DNA from: a virus
Lineage: Duplodnaviria > Heunggongvirae > Uroviricota > Caudoviricetes
Reading direction: 5' to 3' (one strand)
Length of the DNA: 21,560 nucleotides
Virus record (IMG/VR): IMGVR_UViG_2698536476_000013
Location: 1 to 21,560 of that record
A program made the position numbers and the translations under genes. Each line of letters opens with the position of its first letter. The first letter of the stretch is position 1. This document shows positions 149 to 21,161 of the stretch, in pieces. Under the pieces are notes generated by a model. It did no database searches. It saw only the letters and a list, made by a program, of their open reading frames with translations, and had not been told where the DNA came from.

Positions 149-1867
149 ATGATTTTTAGGGATAGCTTGAGAGTATTACCTTATGGTCGAGTAGATAATG
201 ATTTCTTCCAGATAGAAGAAAGACGTTCATGGAATGCAGGGCGATATTATTGGTCTAATAGAAGGATTTTTGGTTATATTGGAATTACTCAATCCAGTAA
301 TAAAGAGCTGAAAGATAAGTCGGGGAGAGAGGGATTCATAAGAAACCAGGCTGCAAGAGAACTGAAAACTATTATATCTAATTTGTTAACTGAACTTGCT
401 GATAGATTTTTTGGTTCACGTTCTGATGACCGTAAAGAGCTTTTAGAACAAGTTAAGCGTGAAAAAGAGTTAAGAAAATCTGCTCAACAACAAGCTCGAA
501 AATCAACACAAAAAAGTTTTTCAGAAGCTTTGAAGAATCAGACACCAGTTCTTGATGCTTCCTTGGAGGCTGTTAAAAGGCTGAAAACTAAGCTTGATAA
601 AACTGATGGTTCGTTAGATTTAAACTATCTTAAAATTATAGACAGTGATCTTACAAACTTAGATGCGTTGCGCAGTGAAATTAAAACGCCTATCAAACCT
701 CCAAAACTTGGAATGTATGAAGAGAAATATAGAGACTACAGAGATAAATTTAATGAGTTCTCTGCGTATATTCTACAAATGAAGTTAGCAATTAATAAAC
801 TTGATTCTGAATTAAATAAACTTGAGCCTTCATTGTCAGCGAAAAATCACCTTGAAAAAAATCAAGGTATTATTAATTCTAAACTAACTAAGTTTAATAA
901 CACGATAGAGGAGAAGATACATTCTCTTTTAAAAAAATGGGCCGATGAAATAAAGGTTGATCGAAGTGATTATTATGCTAAAACTATATCAGTTGTTGAT
1001 TCAATAGATAATGATTCACAAATTGAAAATGTGTTTAATTTGCTCGATAGTTTATATGTTGAGTCAGTTGATACCCTAACTTTCAAATATCAATCAATAA
1101 TAAAAGGTCTCGATAGATTATTTGAAGGTATAAACTTAGATTCAGCATTCTCATTATCTGAAGAAGAACGCTCATATTTTGAAGAAAAAGCTAAAAGTTT
1201 AAACGCGCTTGCACAGTTAGGTATTAGTGTTGAGATAATATCTCATGAACTTGAAGAAATGGATTCTATGGTAACCAGAGGACTAAACTCTCTTCCTACT
1301 TCTGTAAAAGAACACCCTGGTTTTTCATTGGCGTTAAATGCTCACAGATCGCTTACTCAACAAATACGTTTCTTATCACCTTTGAAAATATCAGGTTATC
1401 AATCCAGGCAGAGAATAACTGGAAAAAATATCATGGATTATGTCCTGAAGTTCTTTGGGGAGCGTTTCGAACGGCAACGAATAACTATTGAATTTAGTGA
1501 AGAGTTTAAGCAAATCGCAATAACAGATATACCATCAAGGATCTATCCTGTTTTTACTAATATTATCAACAATGCAATGTATTGGGTCAGTCTGTCAAAT
1601 AATAGGCTCATAAAGATTGGTTTTGTGAATTCTTTGGTTATCATAGCAAATTCTGGTCCGGCAATTGATACCGATGATATCCCGCGACTATTTGAACTAT
1701 TTTATAGCAAAAGAGCAAATGGACATGGGGTAGGTCTGTATCTATGTCGAGAAAACCTTGCTGTTGCACATCATAAAATATGGTATTTAGAACCTGATGA
1801 AGGCGATAACTATTTAATAAAAGATGGCGCTAATTTTGTGATCCAGTTCAATGGAGTGGAGTTCTAA
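149..1867 (+). CDS. Soluble histidine-kinase-like protein (HisKA-like H-box plus HATPase_c/GHKL ATP-binding domain), 572 aa
   Basis: The C-terminal third of the translation carries kinase hallmarks: H-box-like 'EIISHELEEM', N-box 'FTNIINNAMYW', G-boxes 'DTDD..LFELF' and 'GHGVGLYL'. The N-terminal ~340 aa is K/E-rich and coiled-coil-like with no obvious transmembrane segment. The frame stays open upstream to nt 23 without a start codon, so a 5' truncation cannot be excluded. Confidence 0.7.
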   Translation: MIFRDSLRVLPYGRVDNDFFQIEERRSWNAGRYYWSNRRIFGYIGITQSSNKELKDKSGREGFIRNQAARELKTIISNLLTELADRFFGSRSDDRKELLEQVKREKELRKSAQQQARKSTQKSFSEALKNQTPVLDASLEAVKRLKTKLDKTDGSLDLNYLKIIDSDLTNLDALRSEIKTPIKPPKLGMYEEKYRDYRDKFNEFSAYILQMKLAINKLDSELNKLEPSLSAKNHLEKNQGIINSKLTKFNNTIEEKIHSLLKKWADEIKVDRSDYYAKTISVVDSIDNDSQIENVFNLLDSLYVESVDTLTFKYQSIIKGLDRLFEGINLDSAFSLSEEERSYFEEKAKSLNALAQLGISVEIISHELEEMDSMVTRGLNSLPTSVKEHPGFSLALNAHRSLTQQIRFLSPLKISGYQSRQRITGKNIMDYVLKFFGERFERQRITIEFSEEFKQIAITDIPSRIYPVFTNIINNAMYWVSLSNNRLIKIGFVNSLVIIANSGPAIDTDDIPRLFELFYSKRANGHGVGLYLCRENLAVAHHKIWYLEPDEGDNYLIKDGANFVIQFNGVEF

Positions 1868-1868
1868 T

Positions 1869-3617
1869 ATGACAGTGGCAAATTATAATTCTCTTGTCCA
1901 GAAAACTTTCTGCGAAAATGCAATTCGTTCCGTTGTCATGATTGATGACGATTTTCTGACGTATTCTGAATCAATCAGGGCGTTGAATAACGAAGTTGAT
2001 TTAGACTACAACAAAATTGACTCATCTAAACGAGCCGCTACTCTTGAGAGCTTTTTTCAATCTAAAAATATGATTTGTGATGTTGACAATGGTTCTGTTA
2101 ATTTCGATGTGGATCGGATTAGAAAATCAGATCTTATTATTGTAGATTATCATCTTGATAATAATGCACCTGATAAAACACTTAAACTATTACAAGATTT
2201 GAAAGACTCCGATCATTTAAATATGATTGTAATATATACTAGAGAGAATTTAGAAACGGTTTGGATGCAGATATCATCGACTCTCAAAGGTGCTCTGGAT
2301 ATCAACAGCTTGATCATTGACTACGATAATGAAGATGTCCAAAGTTATTGGGAAGACGTTGTATTACCGAACTTAAATGATAATGGTAATAAAGCTCTCA
2401 CAAGAGATGAAACAATAGCCTATATTAAAGACAGTAAGCCTTGTAGAAGAATTAAAAGATTAATACATGATGATGCTGTGTTGGAGGATCAAAAGGATAA
2501 AAACTTCATTGCAAAAATGATTGCAGAATATGCTGTGTCTAGAAATGCAATTATTTCTAGCAACACATCTGGCAATGTCATTCGGGGTGATGAAAGCGGA
2601 GTAAAATGGATTCAATGTGGTAATATCTTTGTCTCCCTATTTCATAAGGTTCAAGATGATCATGAAAACGATGGAGATAGGATTTGGCAAACTCTCAATG
2701 ATTCTCTCATTGAATGGAAACCATCTTATTATCAGTTAATAAAATCTGAAATTCAGAATGCAATCGAAGCTGAGGCTTTATCTTTTGTAAATCATTTGGC
2801 TAACGATCATTACGGTCAAGCTGCGTGGTTAAATGAGATATTAAAATCAGACTCGCCTGATATTAGATGTAGAAATATTGACTTTGTATTTGGTAATTTA
2901 TCAGAAGAGCTTTATCAAAGACTTAAAAATAATAATACGCTGGATGAATTTATCAAAAGTGTTTTTGATAGCTATTCAAATGAATACGCTAACAGCGGAG
3001 TTGCTGCATTGCTCCAATATTGCTCTTCAAAAATGGATCTGCCATCAAATAATGATACTTATCACGAAATGTATCATGCTTTAAATATGAATTTGTCTTC
3101 AAAGAATTTTGAAGATGGTCATATTTCTACTGGCACTATTTTCTTTGATACAGAGTCGAACAAATGGTATTTATGTGTATCTGCGGCATGTGATTTGGTT
3201 CCTACTCAGGGTAACGACCCTCACCATGTAAGATTAAGTCCGCACAGGCTCATTAAAGTTCTGGAGCTTTTTAACGCCAGTCAGAGTAAAGCATTGCCAT
3301 TTGCTGAACATTCGAAATATATATATGTAATGCATAAAAATCAAAGAAAATATCTCTCTATTTTCGAAGGGGATAAAACGCTTCCTGTTGTTGATTATAT
3401 GGTGGTGTTGAATCATGGAACAACAGTTGATGGCGAAGAAAAAAATATTATTTCTGCCGTGTTTTTAAGTAATATGGATGGCAACGTGCAAAATGTTCCT
3501 GTCCGACTCAAACTTAAATCTCAACTGAGAACTGGTTATGCAGAAAGATATCAGGCTATAGCGTCTCAGTATAGCTCAAGGATTGGTGTGGATTATGTAT
3601 CAATGATGCTACCATAA
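1869..3617 (+). CDS. Receiver (REC)-domain protein with ~450-aa C-terminal domain of unknown function (candidate effector), 582 aa
   Basis: ATG at 1869 is preceded by GGAGTGGAG and lies 1 nt after the upstream stop (TAATATG), indicating translational coupling; the longest ORF starts at 1851. The N-terminal ~130 aa has receiver-like motifs: acidic pocket 'VVMIDDD', phospho-acceptor-like 'LIIVDYHL', and 'NMIVIYT'. The remainder has no motif I can name. Confidence 0.65.
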   Translation: MTVANYNSLVQKTFCENAIRSVVMIDDDFLTYSESIRALNNEVDLDYNKIDSSKRAATLESFFQSKNMICDVDNGSVNFDVDRIRKSDLIIVDYHLDNNAPDKTLKLLQDLKDSDHLNMIVIYTRENLETVWMQISSTLKGALDINSLIIDYDNEDVQSYWEDVVLPNLNDNGNKALTRDETIAYIKDSKPCRRIKRLIHDDAVLEDQKDKNFIAKMIAEYAVSRNAIISSNTSGNVIRGDESGVKWIQCGNIFVSLFHKVQDDHENDGDRIWQTLNDSLIEWKPSYYQLIKSEIQNAIEAEALSFVNHLANDHYGQAAWLNEILKSDSPDIRCRNIDFVFGNLSEELYQRLKNNNTLDEFIKSVFDSYSNEYANSGVAALLQYCSSKMDLPSNNDTYHEMYHALNMNLSSKNFEDGHISTGTIFFDTESNKWYLCVSAACDLVPTQGNDPHHVRLSPHRLIKVLELFNASQSKALPFAEHSKYIYVMHKNQRKYLSIFEGDKTLPVVDYMVVLNHGTTVDGEEKNIISAVFLSNMDGNVQNVPVRLKLKSQLRTGYAERYQAIASQYSSRIGVDYVSMMLP

Positions 3618-3688
3618 TTATTATATTTTAGGCGTGGTGATTTTTTTTCGCCATGCCTATTTTATATTTATCATCACAATGATGTTGT

Positions 3689-4105
3689 TTATTTTTGTTT
3701 AAGTCTTCTAAGCTTCATGCATTCTAATGAGAATAATAATAGAGTTGTGCTGTATATAAAGCCAGAGTTAGTTAATAACTTTAAATTTAATGCTTCAGGA
3801 TTTTCACTGAGAAAGTGAAAGGCATAAACTAAGTATACAGCTAAAGTAGCCGTTCCAATTGTTGGTCCAATATCGCCTTGATCATGAGGTTCAAGGTTTA
3901 CATTGAACTTGAAGATTAGCCATTCAAATCCCCAAGTAAAAAAAACAACTAATATCATGGCTGCGAATAATTTCGCGATGTTATCTGCTGATGGATTCAT
4001 CAGAACAGATTGTTTCTGAAAAAATTCACAAAGTGAGAGTCCGAAAAAAATAAAAAAAAGTGGTCTGGAACTAAATTTTTCAAAAACTTTGAATAGGGTT
4101 TCCAT
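3689..4105 (-). CDS. Small integral membrane protein (3-4 predicted hydrophobic helices), 138 aa, unknown function
   Basis: Hydrophobic stretches 'LFFIFFGLSLCEFF', 'LFAAMILVVFFTWGFEWLIF', 'ATLAVYLVYAFHFL', 'GFIYSTTLLLFSL'. AT-rich like the neighbouring cargo. Lies 38 bp downstream of the integrase stop on the same strand. Confidence 0.5.
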   Translation of the reverse strand: METLFKVFEKFSSRPLFFIFFGLSLCEFFQKQSVLMNPSADNIAKLFAAMILVVFFTWGFEWLIFKFNVNLEPHDQGDIGPTIGTATLAVYLVYAFHFLSENPEALNLKLLTNSGFIYSTTLLLFSLECMKLRRLKQK

Positions 4106-4143
4106 TTTCTTTACCTTCAGGATTATATTAGCTATTCTGATAC

Positions 4144-5373
4144 TTAGGCTACCAGAGCATTTGATCTTTGAGCTTGAACGTAATCACTCCACCATTGCAT
4201 CAAACTCTGTCGCTCTATCAGATATTCTGCACGATTGTATGCTGCGATAATTTCATCTTTTTTCGAGTGGGCAAGCGCTGCCTCAAGAACTTCAGCTCTG
4301 AATTTACCAGACTCCTCTGCCGCTGTTCGTGCAATAGAACGCATACCGTGAGCTACAAGCTCGCCTCCGAACCCCATTCGGATGATAGCTGCGTTGGCTG
4401 TTTGTTCATGCATATGATTAAGAGGCGCTTTTATGCTGGGGAAAACCCATTCTCTATGCCCACTTATTGATTTCATTAATTCAAGGATGCGCAAAGCTTC
4501 TTTACTCAAAGGAACTTTGTGAAGCTTTTTCATTTTCATGAAATCAGCAGGAATGTTCCAAATGCTGTTGGTTGTATCAATATCAGACCACCTTGCGCGA
4601 ACGGCTTCACCCGGACGAACCCATGTCAACAATTGCCATTCAATTAGCATACGTGTTTCCAACCGGATTGACGCATTCGTCAAAGATTCCATAAACCTTG
4701 GCAATTCGCTTGGGGGAAGGGCAGGCATATTTTGCTTTTTTGGTTTACTGAATCTTTGACCAAGGTTGTCAGCCGGGTTGAACTCAATAAGTTCTTCAGT
4801 AGCTGCCCACCGGAAGATTTCATTCAGACGTGAAATGATACGGCGTAGAGTTTCCAATACGCCTCGTTGCTCAATAGGATCAAGGTGTTGTTTTAAGAGC
4901 TTAGGTCGGATCTCATTGATAGGGACATTACCCAGACCGGGAAAGACATTTCTCTCTAAGCTGCGCCAGATGTCTGCTGCATGGTCTTGTGAGATACCTG
5001 ATGTCTTTACCTTCTCATCTAACCATTTCCGCGCTACGGCTTGGAGAGTGTGCTCAGTAGCACTCTTTAATGCCTTCGCCTTATCGTTGTTATGGATTTG
5101 GGGATCAACACCATTTGCCAGAAAGGAGAGATATTCATCACGTAAGGCTCTGGCTCTTGCAAGGGTAAGGTGAGGATATGTCCCAAGGCTCATTTTGGTT
5201 CTTTTCTTGCTCACTGGTACTGCATACCTGAAATACCAATTTTTCTTGCCTCCTTTCGCCAAAGGAGCGATTCGTAGAATCAGACCATCACCGTCAAACA
5301 AGTTGATTTCTTTATCGGCTGGCTTGGTGCTTTTGATTTCAGTGTCAGTGAGCTTCTTAGCGATTTTTGCCAT
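4144..5373 (-). CDS. int: Tyrosine recombinase, P4/CP4-57-type integrase
   Basis: N-terminal arm-binding signature 'LTDTEIKSTKPADKEINLFDGDGLILRIA...WYFRY' and C-terminal catalytic region '...HGMRSIARTAAEES...AYNRAEYLIERQSLMQWWSDYV'. The likely start is the ATG at 5373 (GAGGG RBS); the longest ORF extends to 5415. It sits immediately downstream of the ssrA 3'-end fragment, as P4-type integrases do next to their tRNA/tmRNA target. Confidence 0.85.
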   Translation of the reverse strand: MAKIAKKLTDTEIKSTKPADKEINLFDGDGLILRIAPLAKGGKKNWYFRYAVPVSKKRTKMSLGTYPHLTLARARALRDEYLSFLANGVDPQIHNNDKAKALKSATEHTLQAVARKWLDEKVKTSGISQDHAADIWRSLERNVFPGLGNVPINEIRPKLLKQHLDPIEQRGVLETLRRIISRLNEIFRWAATEELIEFNPADNLGQRFSKPKKQNMPALPPSELPRFMESLTNASIRLETRMLIEWQLLTWVRPGEAVRARWSDIDTTNSIWNIPADFMKMKKLHKVPLSKEALRILELMKSISGHREWVFPSIKAPLNHMHEQTANAAIIRMGFGGELVAHGMRSIARTAAEESGKFRAEVLEAALAHSKKDEIIAAYNRAEYLIERQSLMQWWSDYVQAQRSNALVA

Positions 5374-5538
5374 TTTGGGACCCTCGGTTTTTGGACCCTT
5401 CTTAGTGGGTCCCATTCAGGGTGCCATAACTCGTAGTTCTCAGCAATTCTCACTGGACGACAATAGACGTAAAAAAGCCCGCAGAGCTTGTGCTGTGTGG
5501 GCTTAGTAGACTTCATTGAACTTCAAACAACTAAAAAG

Positions 5539-7070: not shown

Positions 7071-8276
7071 TCACTTCTTCATTCCAGATTCCATTGCGGT
7101 TTTCCCGTCGTATTCAGCCAGGTATTTACCGTAATTGCGGAACAGCATTTCCGGCCCCTTATGCCCCATCTGCCCGGCAAGCCAGAAAAGGTTTACACCC
7201 TGGCTAATGTGTCTGGTGGCGAATGTGTGGCGCGTCTGGTACGGGTTACGGTAGCGCACACCAGCTTTTTTCAGGGTCGGCACCCATGCTTTTTTACGGA
7301 TAGCGTCGGCGTTCGTCCAGGGTTCTCCCGTTTTCGGATCGCTGAATATGAACTCACTTTTCATAAAGGTGTATTGCTTCTGCGCCTGCAGGGCTGCCAG
7401 CGCCTCACTGTTCAGCTCCACCTTACGGGTACCGGCTTTTGTCTTGGTGCCTTTAAGTACCCCTACGACACTGGCCGCCTGAACGTGGGCTGTGTTCGCG
7501 ATGGTGTCGAGATCAGCCCAGCGCAGCGCGCACAGTTCTGAGCTCCGCAGACCTGTATTGAAAGCAAAGCGGAACAGGTTTTCCCATTCCCTGTACCTGC
7601 AGCTCTGGTAAATGGCAAGGGTCTCCGCTGGCGTGAACGGGTCAACCTCGTAATCGTCGGCGCTCGGGCTACTGTCGATCACGTGGTACCGGCTGGCGCT
7701 GACGAGGGTTACCGGGTTAATGGTCAGCAGGCCATCCGTAACAGCTTCATCAATGGCGCTGCGCAGAAATGACAGGTTATTCCTGATTGTTTTCAGCTTA
7801 GTTTTTCGGCTGGCTATCCAATTTTTTAGTATCGCAGGCGTCAATTCTGTTACATGTAGTTTATGTAGTTCTGATAGTGCTGATAGACATTTTTCGTAAC
7901 CGCCAATGGTTGACGGCGACAGATTACGGTTTATGCAAATTTTCAGGTATTCATCAAGATAGGACTTAATATTTTTGGTTTTCTTTACTACACCGAATAA
8001 CTCCAGTTTTTTGGAATTGGGGAAATATTTCGCATATTCAAACGTTCCGCTGGCGATCTGATTTTGTATCTCCCCTAGCAGGCGCTCAGCATATTTTATA
8101 CCACGTGTATTTGCCTCAAGCCGAGATAGGGGCTCCCTGCAAAGAACCCCTTTATATGTGAAAGTGATAACTAGTGTTGAAGCAGTTTTATGCTTACGAA
8201 TAGTTACTCCTCTTGGCAGAGATAATAATCCTTGTTCTTTCTTGCCCATTTTGAAACCTCTATTAAGTCGACCCAA
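7071..8276 (-). CDS. int: Tyrosine integrase, lambdoid phage type
   Basis: C-terminal catalytic signature '...RHTFATRHISQGVNLFWLAGQMGHKGPEMLFRNYGKY' (R..H..R..Y) with an upstream SAM-like core-binding region. An alternative start at 8249 ('MGKKEQ') is possible. Confidence 0.85.
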   Translation of the reverse strand: MGRLNRGFKMGKKEQGLLSLPRGVTIRKHKTASTLVITFTYKGVLCREPLSRLEANTRGIKYAERLLGEIQNQIASGTFEYAKYFPNSKKLELFGVVKKTKNIKSYLDEYLKICINRNLSPSTIGGYEKCLSALSELHKLHVTELTPAILKNWIASRKTKLKTIRNNLSFLRSAIDEAVTDGLLTINPVTLVSASRYHVIDSSPSADDYEVDPFTPAETLAIYQSCRYREWENLFRFAFNTGLRSSELCALRWADLDTIANTAHVQAASVVGVLKGTKTKAGTRKVELNSEALAALQAQKQYTFMKSEFIFSDPKTGEPWTNADAIRKKAWVPTLKKAGVRYRNPYQTRHTFATRHISQGVNLFWLAGQMGHKGPEMLFRNYGKYLAEYDGKTAMESGMKK

Positions 8277-10329: not shown

Positions 10330-10525
10330 GCTTCACCTCGATAGGCTTGATGGTGTCTAACAGCAGTCGGCGGCGCGTATTTTCTGCAAAATGGCGGCGT
10401 CCAGTTTCTTTGTGGTAAAACTCGTTTTTGCCAACGACCCACATCCGCTCTGTTTGGTGCAATTTTTTTACCTGCGGGCCATCTTTGGTGATCACGGTAC
10501 CGGTATGGGTTTTTACGATTGTCAT
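10322..10525 (-). CDS. Hypothetical early-left protein, 67 aa
   Basis: Short basic ORF overlapping the flanking genes by 4-8 bp. Confidence 0.4.
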   Translation of the reverse strand: MTIVKTHTGTVITKDGPQVKKLHQTERMWVVGKNEFYHKETGRRHFAENTRRRLLLDTIKPIEVKHV

Positions 10526-11400
10526 GCCACGACCTCTTCGAATTTCAACTCCAATTGGTCACCCCAGATTTCACATGATTCGGAACACGAACCAGTATCA
10601 AACCGCTTGGCCAGCACCATCGCCTGATACAAACTTCTGTAGTCGCTGTCGGCATACATTCTGGCAATCCCGTCAAGCGTCAGGTGACCACGGTACATAA
10701 CGTCTTTACCTGTTCTGCGATGACCATCCCTGACGTGTTTGCCTGTAACCAGTTCATTAAAAACCCGCATCAGACCAGGTTCGTCTTTACATGCAAGCCC
10801 CAGCTTTTGCGTTGACTTTTTGATGCAAAAAACACAGTTCCCGAGGTGCTCCGGGATTTGCAAATCAAAAGGTTGTTTTTGCCACCACCGGATAACATCC
10901 GACTTATCAAAATCTGACAGCTCGGCAAGATACCGGACGCCAGGTTTCGGTTTCAGCCTACGGGGTTCGTCCGCACGAATACCGAGCCATGTGATGTAAT
11001 TCCCTCGCCCAAAATGGTCATCGCAATATTTCGTGAAAGGGGTGAGTTTTAGCCTGTCAGTACAGAATGCGCCGCCGATGTATGGCGTACCGTACTTTTT
11101 AACCATGTCCATAAACGGTTTAAGCACCGGCATTCGCGTCTGAATATCCTTTGGTTCCCATTCCGTATAACCATTTGGCTGCCCAAGCTCTGGATTTATA
11201 TCGACCTGCAACACAGTTAGCGGTATGCCCCAGAACTTCAAAACCTCCCGAATAAAGCGGTATGTCAGCGGATGTTCGCAACCGGTATCCATAAAGATGT
11301 AGCAGACGTTATTGCCAGCCTTTCTTTGTTCTTCCATCAGGTGAACAAGATATGCAGATGTTCTCCCGCCAGAAAAACTAACTACATGAGTTATGCACAT
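10522..11400 (-). CDS. Phosphoadenosine phosphosulfate (PAPS) reductase-family protein, 292 aa
   Basis: PP-loop motif 'VVSFSGGRTS' near the N-terminus and the overall length are typical of phage PAPS-reductase-like proteins. Overlaps the upstream HD gene by 10 bp. Confidence 0.75.
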   Translation of the reverse strand: MCITHVVSFSGGRTSAYLVHLMEEQRKAGNNVCYIFMDTGCEHPLTYRFIREVLKFWGIPLTVLQVDINPELGQPNGYTEWEPKDIQTRMPVLKPFMDMVKKYGTPYIGGAFCTDRLKLTPFTKYCDDHFGRGNYITWLGIRADEPRRLKPKPGVRYLAELSDFDKSDVIRWWQKQPFDLQIPEHLGNCVFCIKKSTQKLGLACKDEPGLMRVFNELVTGKHVRDGHRRTGKDVMYRGHLTLDGIARMYADSDYRSLYQAMVLAKRFDTGSCSESCEIWGDQLELKFEEVVA

Positions 11401-12055: not shown

Positions 12056-12880
12056 TCAGGCGGTGAAAGTACCAATAAAGGTTTCTACTTTGCTGTCTTT
12101 GAATTTCTCAACAAGCAGATCACGAAATTCGTTAGCCATTTCTTCCTGCATCGCTTCCAGCTGAATAATGCGCAGAACCAGTACAGGACGATCGCCAGTG
12201 ATAATGCTGAGGCGTAATTTAAACGGACGTTCTTTCAGGCCTTCAAACGGAACGCATTTAAATTCAAATGCCACTGGCATAATGTCTTTGGTCTTCGCTT
12301 CGACAGACTCCATCAGGGAGCGTTTGCCGCTGAAGTCATTGTCTTCAAAATCAGCGGTCTGGTTTGCTTCAATTGTGATTTTACGGACTGCCGCAGCCGC
12401 TTTGGTTGCCTGAATGGTGTCACCATTAGCATCAAAGCCCACAAGGTAGTCGGCCCAGTCTTCAATCCATTCTGCCAGTGACTTCTGGGAGTTACGCTCG
12501 CCATTAACAGACAACAGAGCAGAAAACGGTGCTGTCTTTTTCAGTTTGAGGGTGGCGGTGTTATCTGCGTGACCTGGTTCATCAATAGTACCCAGGTTAA
12601 GCACACTGACGGCTCGCATATTATCGGCATCGATAAAGCAGCGGGTGCCTTCATCTGCAAGATCTTTAGAATAACGGGTAAAGTCATCGATGCTGGCAGT
12701 GGAAAGCGCACCACGGAAACGGAAGCGATTTAAATTAAATTTTTCCAGATCATGAATGCGGAAATTCTCAGGCAATGCCACAGCATCGGCACCAATATTA
12801 CTGATAATTTCATTAACACCCTGAGCAGAAATAAGGGCATGGATTTGATTAATTGCGGTTGCGTCTAAGTTCTGAGACAT
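12056..12880 (-). CDS. YfdQ-like (DUF2303-type) prophage protein, 274 aa
   Basis: Length and position upstream of the HD-domain gene match the yfdP-yfdQ-yfdR arrangement of the CPS-53 cryptic prophage. Identification is by context and length, not by sequence search. Confidence 0.55.
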
Positions 12881-13492: not shown

Positions 13493-13649
13493 AAAGCAGT
13501 GGCTGTTGTGGTGACCGGTGCTGATCTCCGGCTTGCTGTTATTTCAGACTCTCACGGGCGTTTAATTGCCCCGCCGAACAGCTCTTTTCAGCAATAGCTG
13601 CAATGTCTTTCGCGCATCAGCCTGCGCATTCACCACAACTCTAAAAACA

Positions 13650-13703
13650 AATGTAGGATATCCAACATGTGAGTGTCAAGAGTTTATGTTGGTTATCCTA
13701 CAT
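13650..13703 (-). promoter_or_regulatory. OL/PL region: two 18-bp near-palindromic operators (13651-13668, 13686-13703) overlapping a leftward promoter (TTGACA-17 bp-TACATT)
   Basis: ATGTAGGATATCCAACAT at 13651-13668 is the exact reverse complement of the OR site at 14465-14482; the second copy has 1 mismatch. On the minus strand, TTGACA (plus 13674-13679) lies 17 bp from TACATT. Confidence 0.6.
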
Positions 13704-13720
13704 AAAAAGATAGGCTCATA

Positions 13721-13765: not shown

Positions 13766-14419
13766 TCAAAAATCCATTATTACTTGTTTGACAAGACCAA
13801 CTATTCTGCAGTTCTCACCGCATTCAATAGTTTTATAGTTAGGATTTAGTGGGACGAGATACCTGTTCGGCCAGTCCTCAACAAATTTTTTGAGTGTCGC
13901 TTCTTGCCCACCATTGATATGGGCAACAACGATTTTTCCGTTAATACACTCTGTATCAATAATATCTGGCTCTACGATAACGATAGAACCTTCTGGTATC
14001 GATGGTGAGCCGAGGGGATTGGTCATTGAATCACCACGGACCCGTAGTGCAAATGCCATTTCTGATACAAGGGCGGTAGTATAAACCCACTCTTCAGCAT
14101 CTTCTTTCCTGACACCAGGCTCCGTCATTGTCCATGAACCCGCCTGAACCCACGAGATAAGGGGGACTTTTTTAACTGCGAATATTTCAGGTTTTAGATT
14201 TATCTTTGGTTCAGGCGAGCCTTTTCCGCTAACAAGCCACAGAGGATCGCATTTAAGTGCGTTGGCTAGGGCTTGAAGGTTGGCTCCATTTGGTTGGTAG
14301 TCGTCCTTTTCCCATCCAGTAACAGTGACGCGGTTCACACCAGTCAAATCAGCCAGTGCTTGTTGTGTCAGGTTCAGTTCTTTTCGCCTTTGGCGAATAC
14401 GATCACTCATGTTCATCAT
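13766..14419 (-). CDS. cI: CI-type phage repressor (N-terminal HTH, C-terminal S24/LexA-like peptidase), ~214-217 aa
   Basis: 'LTQQALADLTGVNRVTVTGWE' is an XRE-type HTH. The C-terminal 'ALRVRGDSM...GKIVVAHINGGQEATLKKF' carries the Ser/Lys autocleavage signature. The gene is divergent from cro with operators between them. The true start may be 14410 or 14416. Confidence 0.85.
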   Translation of the reverse strand: MMNMSDRIRQRRKELNLTQQALADLTGVNRVTVTGWEKDDYQPNGANLQALANALKCDPLWLVSGKGSPEPKINLKPEIFAVKKVPLISWVQAGSWTMTEPGVRKEDAEEWVYTTALVSEMAFALRVRGDSMTNPLGSPSIPEGSIVIVEPDIIDTECINGKIVVAHINGGQEATLKKFVEDWPNRYLVPLNPNYKTIECGENCRIVGLVKQVIMDF

Positions 14420-14483
14420 GTAGGTAATCCTACCACATGCCTGTGTAGGATTCTTGACATTGTCATGTTGGATATCCTACATT
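14418..14483 (+). promoter_or_regulatory. OR region: three operator copies at ~23-bp spacing (14418-14435, 14441-14458 degenerate, 14465-14482) with PR (TTGACA 14454-14459, -10 TACATT 14478-14483)
   Basis: Half-site consensus ATGTAGG-N4-CCTACAT read directly. PR has the same -35/operator/-10 architecture as the leftward promoter at 13650-13679. Confidence 0.65.
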
Positions 14484-14739: not shown

Positions 14740-15324
14740 GTGGGTAAAGAACCTGAATGGAAAGTTGATAAACAACCAGCATGGCTGGTGGCAGCAATAC
14801 GAAGAACGATTGCTGATTTACCTCATGGCTATGAGGAAGCAGCGGAAATTCTTGGTTTGTATAAATCTGATGATATCACCCCAGCGAAAGATCAATTGCA
14901 TAACAGACTGCGTAGCGGTGGGGATCAAATTTTTCCACTTGAGTGGGCCATGGTTTTACAGGATGCCAGTGGTACCAGGCATGTAACGGATGCGATAGCG
15001 CGTCGTAGTAATGGGGTGTTTGTGCCGCTGGTGGACATTGATGACATTGACAATGGTGACATTAATCAGCGGCTGATGGAGTCAATAGAATGGATTGGCA
15101 AGCATTCCCAGTACTTACGCAAGGCAACTGCTGATGGAGTTATTGACCAGGCTGAGCGTGAGCAAATCGAAGAGAACAGCTACCAAGTAATGGCGAAGTG
15201 GCAGGAGCATTTAACACTGTTATTTCGTGTTTTTTGTGCGCCGGAAAAGAGTAACGCCCGCGAGTGTGCAGCTCCGGGCGTCGTGGCGTCGATTGCTTCT
15301 GGTTGTGGAGAAACTAACGCATGA
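14740..15324 (+). CDS. Phage early regulatory protein (CII/YdaT/YmfL-position), 194 aa, function uncertain
   Basis: GTG start with GAGGA RBS. Positioned directly after cro as CII-like regulators are. No motif confidently assigned. Confidence 0.5.
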
Positions 15325-15659
15325 ACAGTTTAACAACACACTACCGTCGCTCGCAACTGATTGCGCTTCCTGTACCGGGTGGAAAAGCGAAGGTGGAGTA
15401 TTGCTATGCAGTGAATGTACCAGGTGACAGGGAAATTGTAACCCACAGCTTTGCAGAGTGGGCTGTGGGTGATTTCAACCGGCAGAAGGAGACAGTCCTT
15501 TGCAACAAGTTAACCGCTGGTTCAAAGATCACTACGGAGTGCCCGTCAGAGTCATTCGTTGGGAACCGGAAACACAACGGGTTATCTACCTCCGCGAAGG
15601 CTATGAGCATGAGTGCTTCAGCCCGCTCGAACAGTTTCGTCGTAAATTCAGGGAAATAG
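15321..15659 (+). CDS. Hypothetical early protein, 112 aa
   Basis: ATGA start/stop overlap with the upstream gene indicates translational coupling. Confidence 0.5.
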
Positions 15660-16372: not shown

Positions 16373-16465
16373 ATGAGTCTTTTGAATGAAGTTCAGAAAT
16401 TCATTGAAGCCCATCCGGGGTGTACTTCCGGAGACATTGCGGATGCTTTTTACGTGGGGGCTTAA
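16373..16465 (+). CDS. Small ORF, 30 aa ('MSLLNEVQKFIEAHPGCTSGDIADAFYVGA')
   Basis: My own translation: GGGGG RBS before the ATG at 16373, and its stop TAA overlaps the Dam start (TAATG). Below the ORF-track length cutoff. Confidence 0.3.
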   Translation: MSLLNEVQKFIEAHPGCTSGDIADAFYVGA

Positions 16466-17118
16466 TGAGTAATAAATATTGTCAGGCGCTGGTGGAGCTG
16501 CGGAACAAACCATCCCATGAACTGAAGGAGGTGGGCGATCAGTGGCGCACGCCGGACAGCATTTTCTGGGGAATTAACACCTTGTTTGGCCCGTTTGTTC
16601 TGGATCTATTCACTGACGGTGATAACGCCAAATGTGCCGCGTATTACACGGCGGAAGACAACGCGCTGGCGCACGACTGGTCAGAACGTCTTGCGGAGCT
16701 TAAAGGTGCTGCCTTTGGTAATCCCCCATACAGCCGTGCCAGTCAGCATGAGGGGCAATACATTACCGGCATGCGTTACATCATGAAACATGCCAGTGCC
16801 ATGCGTGATAAAGGCGGGCGCTATGTTTTCCTGATCAAAGCTGCCACCAGCGAAGTGTGGTGGCCGGAAGATGCAGATCATATTGCTTTTATTCGCGGGC
16901 GTATTGGTTTTGAACTGCCTGCCTGGTTTATACCGAAGGACGAGAAGCAGGTGCCGACAGGAGCTTTCTTCGCTGGTGCTATTGCTGTTTTCGACAAGAC
17001 CTGGAAGGGACCGGCAATCAGCTACATCGGGCGCGATGAACTTGAGGCATGTGGTGAGGCCTTTCTGGCGCAGGTTCGCCAGCAGGCGGAAAAACTGGTC
17101 AGGGAGATGGCGGCATGA
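16465..17118 (+). CDS. Phage-type DNA N6-adenine methyltransferase (orphan Dam-like)
   Basis: Catalytic motif 'FGNPPYS' (the D/N-PP-Y/F motif). Likely start is the ATG at 16465 ('MSNKYCQ'); the ORF track begins at a GTG at 16420. Confidence 0.8.
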   Translation: MSNKYCQALVELRNKPSHELKEVGDQWRTPDSIFWGINTLFGPFVLDLFTDGDNAKCAAYYTAEDNALAHDWSERLAELKGAAFGNPPYSRASQHEGQYITGMRYIMKHASAMRDKGGRYVFLIKAATSEVWWPEDADHIAFIRGRIGFELPAWFIPKDEKQVPTGAFFAGAIAVFDKTWKGPAISYIGRDELEACGEAFLAQVRQQAEKLVREMAA

Positions 17119-17441
17119 CGACATTAACTCAATGCCAGCAGCAGGTGCTGGATATGCTGATTTCTTACCAGAAAGAACGAGGCTTCCCGCCAACCAATCA
17201 GGAGGTGGCAACCATGCTGGGATACCGTTCAGTGAATGCAGCGGTGGAGCATCTTCGCGCACTGGAGAAAAAAGGCGTCATCACGATAAAGCGTGGCGTG
17301 GCCCGGGGGATAACGCTTCATACCGCGGTGAAGGACGACGACAGCGAGGCTGTCGGGATTATCCGCTCACTGCTTGCCGGTGAGGAAAACGCAAAGCTGC
17401 GTGCAACCCACTGGTTACATGAGAGAGGCCTGAAAGTATGA
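17115..17441 (+). CDS. LexA N-terminal DNA-binding-domain-like protein lacking a peptidase domain, 108 aa
   Basis: 'LTQCQQQVLDMLISYQKERGFPPTNQEVATMLGYRSVNAAVEHLRALEKKGVI' parallels the LexA winged-helix N-terminus (LexA: '[53 protein letters not shown]'). There is no S24 domain. Confidence 0.65.
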   Translation: MTTLTQCQQQVLDMLISYQKERGFPPTNQEVATMLGYRSVNAAVEHLRALEKKGVITIKRGVARGITLHTAVKDDDSEAVGIIRSLLAGEENAKLRATHWLHERGLKV

Positions 17442-17827
17442 AGCTGATCCTGCCTTTCCCGCCCAGCGTGAACACGTACTGGCGACACCCCAACAAAGGG
17501 GCGTTTGCTGGTAAGAGTCTGATAAGCGCAGCGGGGCGCAAATTCCAGAGCGCGGCATGCGCAGCAATAGTTGAGCAGTTACGTCGTCTGCCGAAACCAA
17601 CGTCGGCACCTGCTTCAGTGGAGATCGTGTTGTTTCCTCCGGATAACCGGATCCGCGATCTGGACAACTATAACAAGGCGCTGTTTGACGCCCTGACCCA
17701 CGCGGGTGTGTGGGAAGACGACAGACAGGTGAAAAGAATGCTGGTGGAGTGGGGACCGGTTATCCCGAAAGGGAAGGTCGAGATCACTATCAGTAAGTAC
17801 GAGAAAACGGCGGGTGCAGCCGCCTGA
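17438..17827 (+). CDS. rusA: RusA-family Holliday junction resolvase
   Basis: 'LPFPPSVNTYWR' and 'RDLDNYNKALFDALTHAGVWEDDRQV' match RusA catalytic-core motifs. ATGA overlap with the upstream gene. Confidence 0.85.
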   Translation: MKLILPFPPSVNTYWRHPNKGAFAGKSLISAAGRKFQSAACAAIVEQLRRLPKPTSAPASVEIVLFPPDNRIRDLDNYNKALFDALTHAGVWEDDRQVKRMLVEWGPVIPKGKVEITISKYEKTAGAAA

Positions 17828-18645: not shown

Positions 18646-19641
18646 GTGACCGTGAGAGCGCTACTGACCCCTGAAATTGCCCCGCGTATGGGGATCGTAT
18701 TGTTCAGGCCCGGTTCAGAGCTGATGCCCCTGTTTATGCAGGGGCGTGTCCTGCTGGAGCCTGAGCCGGAACGTTATTCATCTTTCGCCAGTGGTGCCGT
18801 TCCGGCGGCATCACAACCGCTGGCGGATGATCCTGCCGTTCGGGCCGTGTTCCGCAATGAGGCAGTGATTCGTCGTGCTGGTGGAGTGGAATGTCTTGAA
18901 CGCTGGTTACTTCGTGAAAAAGGTTGCCAGTGGCCTCATTCCGACTGGCACAGCGAGAACATGACCACAATGCGACACACGCCGGGCGCAATCCGTCTGT
19001 GCTGGCACTGCGATAACCAGCTGCGCGATCAGTTCACGGAACGGCTGGAATCAATGGCAACGGATAACTGTACCCGCTGGGTGTTGTCTGTTGTGCGTCG
19101 GGATCTCGGTTTTGATGACAGTCACGTTGTGACAATGCCGGAACTGTGCTGGTGGCTGATTCGTAATGACCTGGCGGATGCCTTACCGGAAAGTGCAGCC
19201 CGTAAGGCACTGAGATTACCGAAGCCTGTTGTGCCGTCTGTCACCCGGGAAAGTGACCTTGTGCCTTCGGTTCCTGCCACCAGCATCATCCAGGATAAAG
19301 CGAAAAAGGTGCTGGCGCTGAAAGTGGATCCGGAGTCGCCGGAGTCTTTTATGTTACGCCCAAAACGTCGCCGCTGGGTTAATGAAAAGTACACGCGCTG
19401 GGTTAAGACACAGCCGTGTGCATGTTGTGGAAAGCCCGCTGATGATCCCCACCACCTGATAGGCCACGGTCAGTGTGGAATGGGTACAAAAGCGCATGAC
19501 CTTTTTGTGTTGCCTTTGTGCAGAAAGCATCACGACGAGCTGCATGCGGATACCGTGGCATTTGAAGAGAAGTATGGCTCTCAGCTGGAGCTGATATTTC
19601 GTTTTATCGATCGTGCGCTGGCAATTGGCGTACTGGCGTAA
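18646..19641 (+). CDS. DUF968/YdfU-like protein with C-terminal Cys/His (HNH-like) cluster
   Basis: C-terminal 'QPCACCGKPADDPHHLIGHGQCGMGTKAHDLFVLPLCRKHHDELH', and a position between rusA/kilA and Q typical of ydfU-like genes. GTG start. Confidence 0.5.
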   Translation: MTVRALLTPEIAPRMGIVLFRPGSELMPLFMQGRVLLEPEPERYSSFASGAVPAASQPLADDPAVRAVFRNEAVIRRAGGVECLERWLLREKGCQWPHSDWHSENMTTMRHTPGAIRLCWHCDNQLRDQFTERLESMATDNCTRWVLSVVRRDLGFDDSHVVTMPELCWWLIRNDLADALPESAARKALRLPKPVVPSVTRESDLVPSVPATSIIQDKAKKVLALKVDPESPESFMLRPKRRRWVNEKYTRWVKTQPCACCGKPADDPHHLIGHGQCGMGTKAHDLFVLPLCRKHHDELHADTVAFEEKYGSQLELIFRFIDRALAIGVLA

Positions 19642-20538: not shown

Positions 20539-20718
20539 GTACCCAGAATCCTGTGAGCTATACGGAAAGTACACAGAAAGGAAGGTGCGACCACAATTAA
20601 TAACAAAATCTTAAAAATTGCACATGGCACTATTAGTTTTCTAAATATTGTGTATTTTTTGTATTGCAGGATGACCCTGTAACGAAGTTTGCGTAACAGC
20701 ATTTTGCTCTACGAGTTT

Positions 20719-20909: not shown

Positions 20910-20985
20910 GGCCCTTTAGCTCAGTGGTGAGAGCGAGCGACTCATAATCGCCAGGTCGCTGGTTCAAATCCAGCAAGGGCCACCA
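20910..20985 (+). tRNA. tRNA with CAU anticodon, Ile2 (lysidine)-type, resembling ileX/ileZ; includes CCA
   Basis: Cloverleaf folded by hand: acceptor GGCCCTT/AAGGGCC, D-stem GCTC/GAGC, anticodon loop CTCATAA, T-arm GCTGG-TTCAAAT-CCAGC, 3' ACCA. Confidence 0.85.
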
Positions 20986-20994
20986 TATCACATA

Positions 20995-21071
20995 CCGCCA
21001 TTAGCTCATCGGGATAGAGCGTCAGCCTTCGAAGCTGGCTGTGCGGGGTTCAAGTCCCCGATGGCGGTCCA
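20995..21071 (+). tRNA. tRNA-Arg (anticodon UCG), argN-like; includes CCA
   Basis: Acceptor CCGCCAT/ATGGCGG, anticodon stem TCAGC/GCTGG with loop CTTCGAA, T-arm CGGGG-TTCAAGT-CCCCG, discriminator T plus CCA. Confidence 0.8.
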
Positions 21072-21084
21072 TTATCAGCATCAT

Positions 21085-21161
21085 GCGTTGTTAGCTCAGC
21101 CGGACAGAGCAATTGCCTTCTAAGCAATCGGTCACTGGTTCGAATCCAGTACAACGCGCCA
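21085..21161 (+). tRNA. tRNA-Arg (anticodon UCU), argO-like; includes CCA
   Basis: Acceptor GCGTTGT/ACAACGC, anticodon stem ATTGC/GCAAT with loop CTTCTAA, T-arm ACTGG-TTCGAAT-CCAGT, discriminator G plus CCA. Confidence 0.85.

What the first reader, a model, noticed from the sequence alone, without database searches (positions are those of the whole stretch)
17115..17441. Phage-encoded LexA DNA-binding domain without the autocleavage domain
A 108-aa protein closely parallels the LexA N-terminal winged helix but lacks the S24 peptidase domain. It would be uncleavable and could bind SOS boxes as a dominant, non-inducible LexA mimic, or bind LexA itself, which would rewire the host SOS response or prophage induction. 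It is translationally coupled between Dam and RusA.
Basis: partly seen in the sequence, partly recalled or inferred. Interest (0 to 1): 0.5.

Follow-up and report, generated by a model that had tools for sequence, protein, structure and literature searches.

The report
Phage LexA-like DNA-binding protein, no protease
This is a real and very common prophage gene for a small protein that copies the DNA-binding half of the bacterial SOS repressor LexA and adds its own short helical tail; it is already annotated but untested, and it probably regulates its own DNA sites rather than mimicking LexA exactly.

Summary
ORF 17115-17441 (+) encodes 108 aa. Residues 1-68 are a full LexA_DNA_bind winged helix (Pfam E 3e-19; 51% ungapped identity to E. 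coli LexA; model 1.0 Å from DNA-bound LexA). There is no S24 peptidase domain, and ATGA overlaps join the gene to Dam and RusA.

It is not new as an object. The gene is SfV orf42 / PHROG 362 ("LexA family transcriptional regulator") and occurs in 2,233 of 5,426 complete E. coli genomes. No functional study was found. The only characterised analogue is GIL01 gp6, an independently truncated LexA that activates a phage late promoter.

New here:
- A conserved two-helix tail (aa 73-103) under purifying selection, probably a dimeriser.
- A 130-135 aa sister clade driven by SOS-box promoters, with DinI or a RecA paralogue upstream.
- A control against the exact-mimic idea. R28, E44 and R67 are invariant in 80/80 host LexAs, but in 36 phage proteins R28 and E44 are never kept and R67 is kept in only 3. 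E45 is kept in half.

Best reading: a RecA-insensitive, delayed-early dimeric regulator with lineage-specific LexA-like operators. A strict SOS-box mimic is less likely (about 0.2). Binding to LexA itself has no structural basis.

The parts
17115..17441 (+). LexA-like gene, 108 aa (homologue of SfV orf42; PHROG 362; PGAP name 'LexA family transcriptional regulator')
   Evidence: ORF. PF01726 E 3e-19. phrog_362 E 4.6e-59 over the full length. 96-99% identical in about 50 lambdoid phages. dN/dS 0.03-0.15 against diverged copies.
17115..17318 (+). Winged helix-turn-helix DNA-binding domain, aa 1-68 (helices 6-22, 28-35, 40-52; strands 56-58 and 66-68)
   Evidence: AlphaFold model pLDDT 88-90 over aa 11-60 and 79-82 at the ends of the domain. 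RMSD 1.0 Å and 50% identity to 3JSO LexA-DNA. 51% ungapped identity to E. coli LexA 1-69.
17232..17270 (+). Predicted recognition helix alpha3, aa 40-52 (VNAAVEHLRALEK; S39 lies just before it)
   Evidence: S39, N41, A42 and E45 match the LexA contact residues. E44 is V and R52 is K (contact list from PMC3091678 and PMC4807011). Position 44 is never Glu in 36/36 subfamily members but is Glu in 80/80 host LexAs.
17319..17345 (+). Acidic linker, aa 69-77 (HTAVKDDDS), the lowest-confidence part of the model
   Evidence: The pLDDT block for residues 71-80 averages 62. Length varies across the subfamily.
17331..17423 (+). Conserved C-terminal two-helix hairpin, aa 73-88 and 93-103. It replaces the LexA hinge and S24 domain and is inferred to be a dimerisation module.
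   Evidence: DSSP helices 73-88 and 93-103, pLDDT 86-88. Conserved pattern EAVxLLRALxAGExxARERAIxxL with invariant A97 and L101 across six or more genera. Tail dN/dS 0.06-0.29. No specific PDB match.
17103..17106 (+). GGAG Shine-Dalgarno inside the end of dam, 8 nt before the ATG
   Evidence: Read directly from the sequence.
16465..17118 (+). Upstream phage Dam methyltransferase. Its TGA overlaps the LexA-like ATG (ATGA). The likely true start is the ATG at 16465, not the GTG at 16420.
   Evidence: PF05869 E 5e-46; TIGR01712 E 6e-76. The Pfam and NCBIfam matches start at residue 29-32 of the 232-aa ORF, and the stop of a small upstream ORF overlaps the ATG at 16465.
17438..17827 (+). Downstream RusA Holliday-junction resolvase. 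Its ATG overlaps the LexA-like TGA (ATGA).
   Evidence: PF05866 E 1.3e-14; phrog_34 E 1e-57.
18646..19641 (+). DUF968 (Orf/NinB-like plus HNH), the most conserved neighbour of the LexA-like gene across all clades. Context only.
   Evidence: PF06147 E 4e-80. Present 1-4 genes downstream in every locus examined. Family described in PMC4118853.
19613..20407 (+). Q antiterminator. It marks the end of the delayed-early (ninR-like) operon that contains the gene.
   Evidence: PF03589 E 1e-52.
13766..14419 (-). The prophage's own CI-type repressor (HTH_3 plus Peptidase_S24). This shows the LexA-like protein is not the immunity repressor.
   Evidence: PF01381 plus PF00717. Flanking operator-like palindromes at 13648-13706 and 14426-14482.

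Best explanation
The gene encodes a RecA-insensitive, LexA-derived transcription factor of lambdoid prophages.

Shown:
- A complete LexA-type winged HTH (aa 1-68) is followed by an acidic linker and a conserved two-helix hairpin (aa 73-103).
- There is no protease domain and no conserved cleavage site.
- Both modules are under purifying selection.
- The gene has no promoter of its own. It is read as part of the delayed-early ninR-type operon, between the replication genes and Q, with start and stop overlapping its neighbours.

Inferred:
- It is made only after CI is inactivated or on infection.
- The hairpin supplies the dimerisation that the missing LexA C-domain would normally provide.
- The dimer binds a palindromic operator whose half-site is related to the LexA CTGT half-site, because S39, N41, A42 and E45 are kept.
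- The operator is not identical to an SOS box, because N28, V44 and T67 replace residues that never vary in real LexAs.
- Specificity differs between phage lineages.

Its job is therefore most likely phage-specific timing or control of transcription once the SOS signal has fired, as GIL01 gp6 does. It is unlikely to be a wholesale replacement of LexA at host SOS boxes. The sister clade, which is driven directly by host-LexA-controlled promoters, fits the same logic: host LexA cleavage switches on an uncleavable LexA-type regulator.
For: Domain, fold and absence of S24.

Tail conserved across Escherichia, Citrobacter, Salmonella, Cronobacter, Klebsiella, Enterobacter and Atlantibacter.

Purifying selection: dN/dS is 0.04-0.09 for the DBD and 0.06-0.29 for the tail.

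A dimeriser is needed and sufficient for LexA-DBD function, as shown by LexA-DBD fusions in the sulA-lacZ two-hybrid assay (PMC7595419).

Operon position is conserved in 10 or more independent loci. No sigma-70-like promoter or terminator lies immediately upstream.

Specificity diverges from LexA. Host LexA helix III is [RK]S[PA]NAAEEHL in 80/80, with R28 and R67 invariant. The phage subfamily has 0/36 R28, 0/36 E44, 3/36 R67 and 18/36 E45, with high entropy at positions 40, 44 and 45.

Precedent: GIL01 gp6 is a DBD-only LexA homologue with its own operator that activates late genes (PMC6182141).

The sister clade has SOS-box promoters upstream of the cassette in three lineages.
Against: No operator was found. 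Neither SOS boxes nor any recurrent CTGT-type palindrome exceeds chance in the window, and the one conserved inverted repeat was rejected.

Dimerisation by the tail is inferred from conservation and helix pattern only. No multimer model could be run.

Four of five helix-3 contacts are identical to LexA. The DBD is much closer to host LexA (46-54% identity) than gp6 is to this protein (no BLASTP alignment). Real binding to SOS boxes therefore cannot be excluded.

Neighbours are RecA-pathway genes (RusA and DUF968/Orf, plus DinI or RecA in the sister clade), which hints at an SOS link.
Confidence: 0.5

Rival explanations
1. Non-inducible LexA mimic. The protein binds canonical host SOS boxes (CTGT-N8-ACAG) as a dimer. 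Because it cannot be cleaved, it re-represses the SOS regulon, and LexA-controlled rival elements, after host LexA has been destroyed during induction.
For: - 51% identity and 1.0 Å RMSD to the E. coli LexA DBD. S39, N41, A42, E45, K53, R64 and G65 are kept.
- The free LexA NTD still binds SOS boxes and represses, so cells must degrade it with ClpXP (PMC10584840).
- LexA DBD plus any dimeriser represses sulA (PMC7595419).
- In Klebsiella the homologue is co-operonic with DinI, an SOS shut-off factor, behind a consensus SOS box. In L019 it follows a RecA paralogue.
- Conserved neighbours are RecA-pathway proteins (RusA; DUF968/Orf, PMC4118853).
Against: - R28, E44 and R67 are invariant in 80/80 SOS-box-binding LexAs but are N, V and T here. 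R28 and E44 are never kept in 36 subfamily members and R67 in only 3. E45 is lost in half of them, including the Klebsiella clade that sits behind the best SOS box (helix SSSNAVLLHL).
- All these hosts share the same LexA helix III, so a mimic should keep LexA's recognition residues.
- The dimer geometry set by a different dimerisation module need not match the 16-bp SOS spacing.
Confidence: 0.2
2. Protein-binding modulator. The domain acts mainly through protein contacts, for example by binding LexA, RecA*, RNA polymerase or a phage partner (as gp7 binds LexA in GIL01), rather than through its own operator.
For: No operator was found. The conserved tail could be a protein-protein interface. 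GIL01 shows that phage proteins can retune LexA.
Against: LexA's dimer interface lies in the C-terminal domain (PMC6590174), and the solved LexA-RecA* complex is of full-length LexA (8TRG). This protein lacks that domain, so it has no counterpart to it. The invariant residues (S39, N41, K53, R64, G65) are the DNA-facing ones, which points to selection for DNA binding.
Confidence: 0.08
3. Decaying remnant of a captured lexA gene with no current function.
For: The residues following the DBD align weakly to the LexA hinge and cleavage region, including an Ala-Gly at 88-89.
Against: dN/dS is 0.03-0.15. The tail is conserved across genera at 40-50% identity. The gene is intact in thousands of genomes. 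The Ala-Gly is not conserved.
Confidence: 0.02

Closest known systems
E. coli LexA N-terminal domain (PDB 1LEA, 3JSO)
   Same: Same winged-HTH fold, with ungapped alignment over residues 2-69, 51% identity and 1.0 Å RMSD. S39, N41, A42, E45, H46, K53, R64 and G65 are identical.
   Different: No S24 peptidase or dimerisation domain, no Ser119/Lys156, and no conserved Ala84-Gly85 site. N28, V44 and T67 replace residues that are invariant in 80/80 host LexAs. A two-helix tail takes the place of the hinge and C-domain. It is encoded in a phage delayed-early operon, not behind an autoregulated SOS box.
GIL01 (Bacillus tectivirus) gp6, a truncated LexA homologue that activates late promoter P3 (PMC6182141)
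   Same: Phage-encoded, LexA DNA-binding domain only, uncleavable, and made only after the SOS signal. In the 130-135 aa sister clade the gene likewise sits behind a host-LexA-repressed promoter.
   Different: Independent origin. gp6 (66 aa) gives no BLASTP alignment to this protein, derives from a Bacillus-type LexA, has no C-terminal tail, and uses K38 with a GaCACAnnTGTGaC site. The present family has a conserved hairpin and a helix much closer to host LexA. No activator or repressor role has been tested.
Engineered LexA-DBD fusions (LexA-based bacterial two-hybrid)
   Same: Architecture: a LexA DBD plus a heterologous dimerisation module, which is sufficient for operator repression (PMC7595419).
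   Different: Those fusions use the wild-type E. coli DBD and target the sulA SOS box. Here the DBD has diverged at invariant LexA positions, and dimerisation by the tail is only inferred.
Short phage proteins with only the LexA DBD (BFVD hits: Mycobacterium phage Wildcat, Tectiviridae, uncultured Caudovirales; 65-150 aa)
   Same: Same domain-only design in many unrelated phages, with RMSD 1.1-1.5 Å over about 66 residues.
   Different: Only 24-41% identical, and most lack the conserved hairpin. None is characterised apart from gp6.
DinI / PsiB (SOS-dampening proteins carried by mobile elements)
   Same: Possible shared purpose, which is control of the SOS response by a mobile element. DinI is co-operonic with the Klebsiella homologue.
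   Different: DinI and PsiB act on RecA filaments, not on DNA operators. There is no sequence or fold relationship.

Membership tests
LexA repressor proper (NCBIfam TIGR00498 equivalog) | N-terminal LexA-type winged HTH (PF01726) | tested here: met
   PF01726 E 3e-19, full profile 1-65 of 65. RMSD 1.0 Å to 3JSO.
LexA repressor proper (NCBIfam TIGR00498 equivalog) | C-terminal S24 peptidase and dimerisation domain with a Ser/Lys dyad | tested here: not met
   No PF00717 hit. The protein ends at residue 108. TIGR00498 matches only model positions 1-91 of 203 and scores 70.9 against a cut-off of 110.95.
LexA repressor proper (NCBIfam TIGR00498 equivalog) | Conserved Ala-Gly autocleavage site in the hinge | tested here: not met
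   The window has A88-G89 in a weak alignment to LexA VAAGE. The dipeptide is not conserved in the subfamily, where AN, ER, TR, SG, DD, AC, AE and AD occur instead.
LexA repressor proper (NCBIfam TIGR00498 equivalog) | Recognition residues that are invariant in SOS-box-binding gammaproteobacterial LexAs (R28, S39, N41, A42, A43, E44, E45, H46, K53, R64, R67) | tested here: not met
   All are invariant in 80/80 host LexAs. The window protein keeps S39, N41, A42, A43, E45, H46, K53 and R64, but has N28, V44 and T67. The subfamily has 0/36 R28, 0/36 E44 and 3/36 R67.
Pfam PF01726 LexA_DNA_bind domain family | Score above the gathering threshold over the whole domain | tested here: met
   69 bits against 23.7.
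PHROG 362 ('transcriptional repressor') | Full-length match to the family profile, including the C-terminal tail | tested here: met
   E 4.6e-59, protein 1-108 against profile 1-106 of 106. The clade-B member L019 also matches (E 1.7e-41).
GIL01 gp6-type truncated LexA activators | Phage-encoded LexA DBD without a cleavage domain | tested here: met
GIL01 gp6-type truncated LexA activators | Detectable sequence relationship to gp6 (same lineage) | tested here: not met
   BLASTP finds no local alignment between the 108-aa protein and the 66-aa gp6. The two are related only through the Pfam domain.
GIL01 gp6-type truncated LexA activators | Gene expressed from a host-LexA-repressed promoter | tested here: not met
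   The window has no SOS box above chance, and the gene is embedded in the PR-type delayed-early operon. The feature is met only in the sister clade (L001, L015, L019).
GIL01 gp6-type truncated LexA activators | Binds its own palindromic operator and activates a late promoter | not testable with these tools
   No operator was identified in silico. This needs EMSA, ChIP or reporter assays.

The most novel reading that the evidence does not exclude
The protein is a RecA-proof LexA surrogate. Once host LexA has been cleaved, it re-silences SOS boxes or SOS-like boxes. These would include those controlling recA/lexA, LexA-controlled antirepressors of rival prophages, colicins and SOS-induced defences. 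That would give the induced phage control over the host damage response and over competing elements. It is carried by about 41% of E. coli genomes, including Stx-type prophages, so it would be a widespread hidden modulator of SOS output and possibly of Shiga-toxin phage induction.
Probability: 0.2. Interest if true: 0.7.

Novelty: new member of a known kind. Interest (0 to 1): 0.4.

Why it matters
LexA cleavage is the switch that turns on DNA repair, mutagenesis, prophage induction and Shiga-toxin release. A LexA-type DNA-binding protein that cannot be cleaved is encoded in the early operon of prophages found in two of every five sequenced E. coli genomes, including Stx-type phages, and it has never been tested.

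If it binds SOS or SOS-like operators, it would change how long and how strongly the damage response runs in lysogens. If it controls phage promoters, it is a missing regulator of the lambdoid developmental programme and a Gram-negative counterpart of GIL01 gp6.

Either way, one EMSA or ChIP experiment would settle it. The sister clade, which sits behind SOS boxes with DinI or RecA, offers a ready comparative system.

Tried and rejected
1. **SOS boxes in the window.** There is no perfect CTGT-N8-ACAG. Eight one-mismatch hits were found against 6.7 expected.

2. **CTGT/ACAG inverted repeats at spacings 0-16.** Counts were at chance and mostly inside genes. The intergenic CTGTAACG-N7-CGTAACAG at 20677, downstream of Q, is shared only with one near-identical phage and was not pursued.

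3. **Palindrome 16382-16408 upstream of dam.** It lies inside a 30-aa remnant ORF of a PerC-family gene and is not an evident operator.

4. **Conserved inverted repeat CCACAG-N14-CTGTGG at 15443-15468.** This was rejected as the operator. It lies in the ymfM coding region and is identical in Citrobacter phage phiNP, which lacks the LexA-like gene. Klebsiella phage KpF5 has a different stem at the same place.

5. **Recurrent palindrome arms across eight representative loci.** Nothing was shared or syntenic.

6. **'AG' at residues 88-89 as a retained LexA cleavage site.** It is not conserved in the subfamily.

7. **Defence-system models (PADLOC).** The only hit was a weak wHTH-level match to a CARF model (E 3.6e-4).

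8. **Literature.** Ten full-text searches, using LexA-like, phage-encoded LexA, truncated LexA, LexA family, RefSeq accessions and neighbour gene names, found only annotation-level mentions of this gene (PMC8136144, PMC7946995) and the GIL01 gp6 work.

9. **Unavailable resources.** The primary LexA-DNA structure paper (PMC2921665) is not held, so contact residues are taken from secondary sources. The AFDB fold library was unavailable. A homodimer or protein-DNA model could not be run with the tools.

Full report
**1. What is there**

The window holds a lambdoid, Stx-type prophage early region:
- a CI-type repressor (HTH_3 plus S24) at 13766-14419 (-);
- a CII/CP76-like gene, a ymfM-like gene and an HTH_36 replication protein;
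- then Dam, the 108-aa ORF, RusA, a KilA-N protein, DUF968 and the Q antiterminator;
- a tRNA-Met/Arg/Arg cluster at 20910-21161.

The ORF at 17115-17441 (+) starts at an ATG preceded by GGAG. It overlaps the Dam stop and the RusA start by ATGA on each side.

**2. Identity of the protein**

Residues 1-65 match Pfam LexA_DNA_bind end to end (E 3e-19). phmmer aligns residues 2-69 without a gap to E. coli LexA 2-69, which gives 35/69 identities.

An AlphaFold model built on a 36-sequence alignment has mean pLDDT 83.9. It shows the three helices and two-stranded wing of LexA, then two further helices at 73-88 and 93-103. The N-terminal part overlays DNA-bound LexA (3JSO) at 1.0 Å. The tail has no specific structural match.

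There is no S24 domain. The NCBIfam LexA equivalog scores well below its cut-off and covers only the first 91 model positions. The protein therefore cannot self-cleave.

The prophage has its own cleavable CI, so this is not the immunity repressor.

**3. How common it is, and what is already known**

The gene is 96-99% identical in about 50 sequenced lambdoid phages. These include SfV (orf42), SfII, SfIV, mEp460, phage cdtI, many Stx2c phages and Stx1 phage Lys8385Vzw. It is variously annotated as 'LexA DNA binding domain protein', 'LexA-like' or 'transcriptional repressor'.

It matches PHROG 362 over its full length. It occurs in 2,233 of 5,426 complete E. coli genomes, with up to four copies per genome, under the PGAP name 'LexA family transcriptional regulator'.

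Ten full-text literature searches found only table-level mentions of this gene (PMC8136144, PMC7946995). The one characterised analogue is GIL01 gp6, a 66-aa truncated LexA homologue. gp6 is expressed after LexA inactivation, binds its own palindrome and activates the phage late promoter (PMC6182141). gp6 gives no BLASTP alignment to the present protein, so the two are independent truncations.

A fold search of viral models shows many other 65-150 aa phage proteins with only the LexA DBD.

The object is therefore catalogued and the kind is known. The function of this family is untested.

**4. The C-terminal tail is a real module**

Relatives at 40-65% identity from Citrobacter, Salmonella, Cronobacter, Klebsiella, Enterobacter and Atlantibacter align across the whole protein. 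They share the pattern EAVxLLRALxAGExxARERAIxxL, with invariant A97 and L101.

dN/dS against diverged copies is 0.04-0.09 for the DBD and 0.06-0.29 for the tail.

The LexA DBD alone does not repress sulA in the LexA-based two-hybrid system, but does so when fused to a dimerising partner (PMC7595419). The simplest reading is that the hairpin replaces LexA's C-domain as dimeriser. This is an inference, because no multimer model could be run.

The apparent Ala-Gly at 88-89, which aligns weakly with the LexA cleavage site, is not conserved.

**5. Does it read SOS boxes?**

For:
- S39, N41, A42 and E45 are kept. These are four of the five helix-3 contacts listed in PMC3091678.
- K53 and R64/G65 are also kept.
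- The free LexA NTD is known to retain SOS-box binding (PMC10584840).

Against, I ran a control. Eighty genuine LexA genes were fetched from Enterobacterales, Vibrionaceae and Orbaceae, with NTDs down to 70% identical to E. coli. All 80 have helix III [RK]S[PA]NAAEEHL, with invariant R28, E44, E45 and R67.

In the 36-member phage subfamily, of similar or greater divergence and living in hosts with this same LexA helix III:
- R28 and E44 are never retained;
- R67 is retained in 3 of 36;
- E45 is retained in 18 of 36;
- positions 40, 44 and 45 have high entropy.

The window protein has N28, V44 and T67. A protein selected to occupy the unchanging SOS box should look like LexA at these positions. 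Instead the pattern looks like lineage-specific operator specificities built on a common LexA-like scaffold.

The window has no SOS box above chance.

**6. Context**

There are two arrangements.

*Clade A* is 105-111 aa and includes the window. The order is (PerC-like, Dam or another methylase) - LexA-like - RusA - (KilA-N or Ant) - DUF968 - Q. The start codon overlaps whatever gene lies upstream, and there is no private promoter. The Dam coupling is therefore local, not a conserved partnership.

*Clade B* is 130-135 aa (Klebsiella, Enterobacter and one metagenomic contig). A terminator and a good SOS box precede a cassette of phrog_1813 - LexA-like - phrog_1212 - (RusA) - DUF968 - Q-like - lysis genes. 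Between the SOS box and the cassette sits DinI (Klebsiella), a 369-aa RecA paralogue (L019) or nothing (Enterobacter).

The SOS boxes in clade B are canonical while the recognition helices differ (SSSNAVLLHL, ASPNAALTHL, SSPNAAAEHL). The boxes are therefore for host LexA. This mirrors GIL01, where host LexA cleavage switches on an uncleavable LexA-type regulator.

The constant neighbours are RusA and DUF968, an Orf/NinB-like recombination mediator fused to HNH (PMC4118853). Together with DinI and RecA, they are all RecA-pathway proteins. This keeps an SOS-related role on the table.

**7. Search for an operator**

Nothing convincing was found.
- A conserved inverted repeat (CCACAG-N14-CTGTGG, 15443-15468) was traced to the ymfM coding region. 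It also occurs in a phage that lacks the gene, so it was rejected.
- A palindrome upstream of dam lies in a 30-aa remnant of a PerC-family gene.
- No palindrome arm recurs across loci.

**8. Verdict**

| Item | Assessment |
|---|---|
| Observation | Confirmed |
| 'Uncleavable' | Supported |
| 'DNA-contact residues conserved' | Partly (4 of 5 in helix 3, but three LexA-invariant residues replaced) |
| 'SOS-box mimic' | Possible but disfavoured (about 0.2) |
| 'Binds LexA' | No structural basis |

Best reading (about 0.5): a delayed-early, RecA-insensitive, hairpin-dimerised LexA-type regulator with lineage-specific, CTGT-related operators, acting on phage (or a limited set of host) promoters after the SOS signal.

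Novelty: a new, uncharacterised member of a known kind. It is distinct from gp6 in its independent origin, its closeness to host LexA and its conserved tail.

Interest is moderate. The gene is extremely widespread and sits in Stx-type phages, and one binding experiment would resolve it.

Noticed in passing
L001:5385-6393 (Klebsiella), L019:340-2231 (metagenome), L015:4560-5408 (Enterobacter): In the 130-135 aa sister clade the LexA-like gene sits in a cassette (phrog_1813 orf - LexA-like - phrog_1212 orf - DUF968 - Q-like). A terminator and a good SOS box precede the cassette. DinI (Klebsiella) or a 369-aa RecA paralogue (L019) lies between the box and the cassette. The nin/Q/lysis region appears to be wired directly to host LexA.
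   Followed up: partly
L004:2190-2209 (Cronobacter prophage; same in L005 and L006): A near-consensus SOS box, TACTGTTTTTATATACAGTA (18/20), lies inside the coding region of the prophage cI gene, about 220 nt from its start.
   Followed up: no
L011:10165-10184 and L014:13860-13879: An SOS-like box, TACTGTAAAAATAAACAGTG (16/20), sits at the very start of a DNA methyltransferase gene downstream of Q in Citrobacter prophages. One of these phages (phiNP) lacks the LexA-like gene.
   Followed up: no
window 16374-16466: A 30-aa ORF (MSLLNEVQKFIEAHPGCTSGDIADAFYVGA) matches the N-terminus of the 163-aa PerC-family gene that occupies this position in relatives (L012:4517-5008). It looks like a remnant left when Dam replaced that gene. 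Its stop overlaps the ATG at 16465, which is probably the true Dam start rather than the GTG at 16420.
   Followed up: partly
window 15443-15468: A conserved inverted repeat, CCACAG-N14-CTGTGG, lies inside the ymfM-like ORF (15321-15659). The arms are invariant across E. coli and Citrobacter phages. The C. freundii locus has a G-T (wobble) pair in one arm, and Klebsiella phage KpF5 has a different stem at the same place. It may be an RNA hairpin or a coding coincidence. It is not linked to the LexA-like gene.
   Followed up: yes
window 149-5415: Upstream of the prophage is a separate integrase-bearing island. It carries a histidine-kinase-like protein (HATPase_c plus HEF_HK, 149-1867), a Response_reg_2 (PF19192) protein (1851-3617) and a P4-type integrase (4144-5415, -). 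A second integrase at 7071-8276 (-) appears to belong to the prophage. No PADLOC match was found. This may be a conflict or defence island.
   Followed up: no
window 20910-21161: A tRNA-Met(CAT), tRNA-Arg(TCG), tRNA-Arg(TCT) cluster lies downstream of Q, the arrangement typical of Stx phages just upstream of stx. The closest phage over this part, Lys8385Vzw, carries stxA/B there (L007:13406-14632).
   Followed up: partly
proteins P0130, P0132, P0149, P0152, P0153, P0155, P0156 and others: Several 140-350 aa proteins contain two tandem LexA_DNA_bind domains in one chain. They may be single-chain pseudo-dimers that solve the dimerisation problem in another way.
   Followed up: no
window 17339-17355: A perfect palindrome, CGACAGC-gag-GCTGTCG, lies inside the LexA-like gene itself, in the linker-coding region. 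The Cronobacter locus has CTGTCGG-aatat-CCGACAG about 50 bp upstream of its copy (L004:5935-5953). Probably chance.
   Followed up: no
L016:8373-9098 and L015:2863-4232: Cargo genes next to the module in relatives: a pertussis-S1-like ADP-ribosyltransferase downstream of Q in a Salmonella prophage, and an RNase_A_bac toxin / CdiI_2-like immunity pair upstream of the SOS-box promoter in Enterobacter.
   Followed up: no
window 10522-11400 (-) and 12056-12880 (-): The early-left operon carries a PAPS-reductase-domain protein and a DUF2303 protein. PHROG also labels some Dam relatives 'PAPS reductase', which explains the odd RefSeq name given to dam in several phage records.
   Followed up: no
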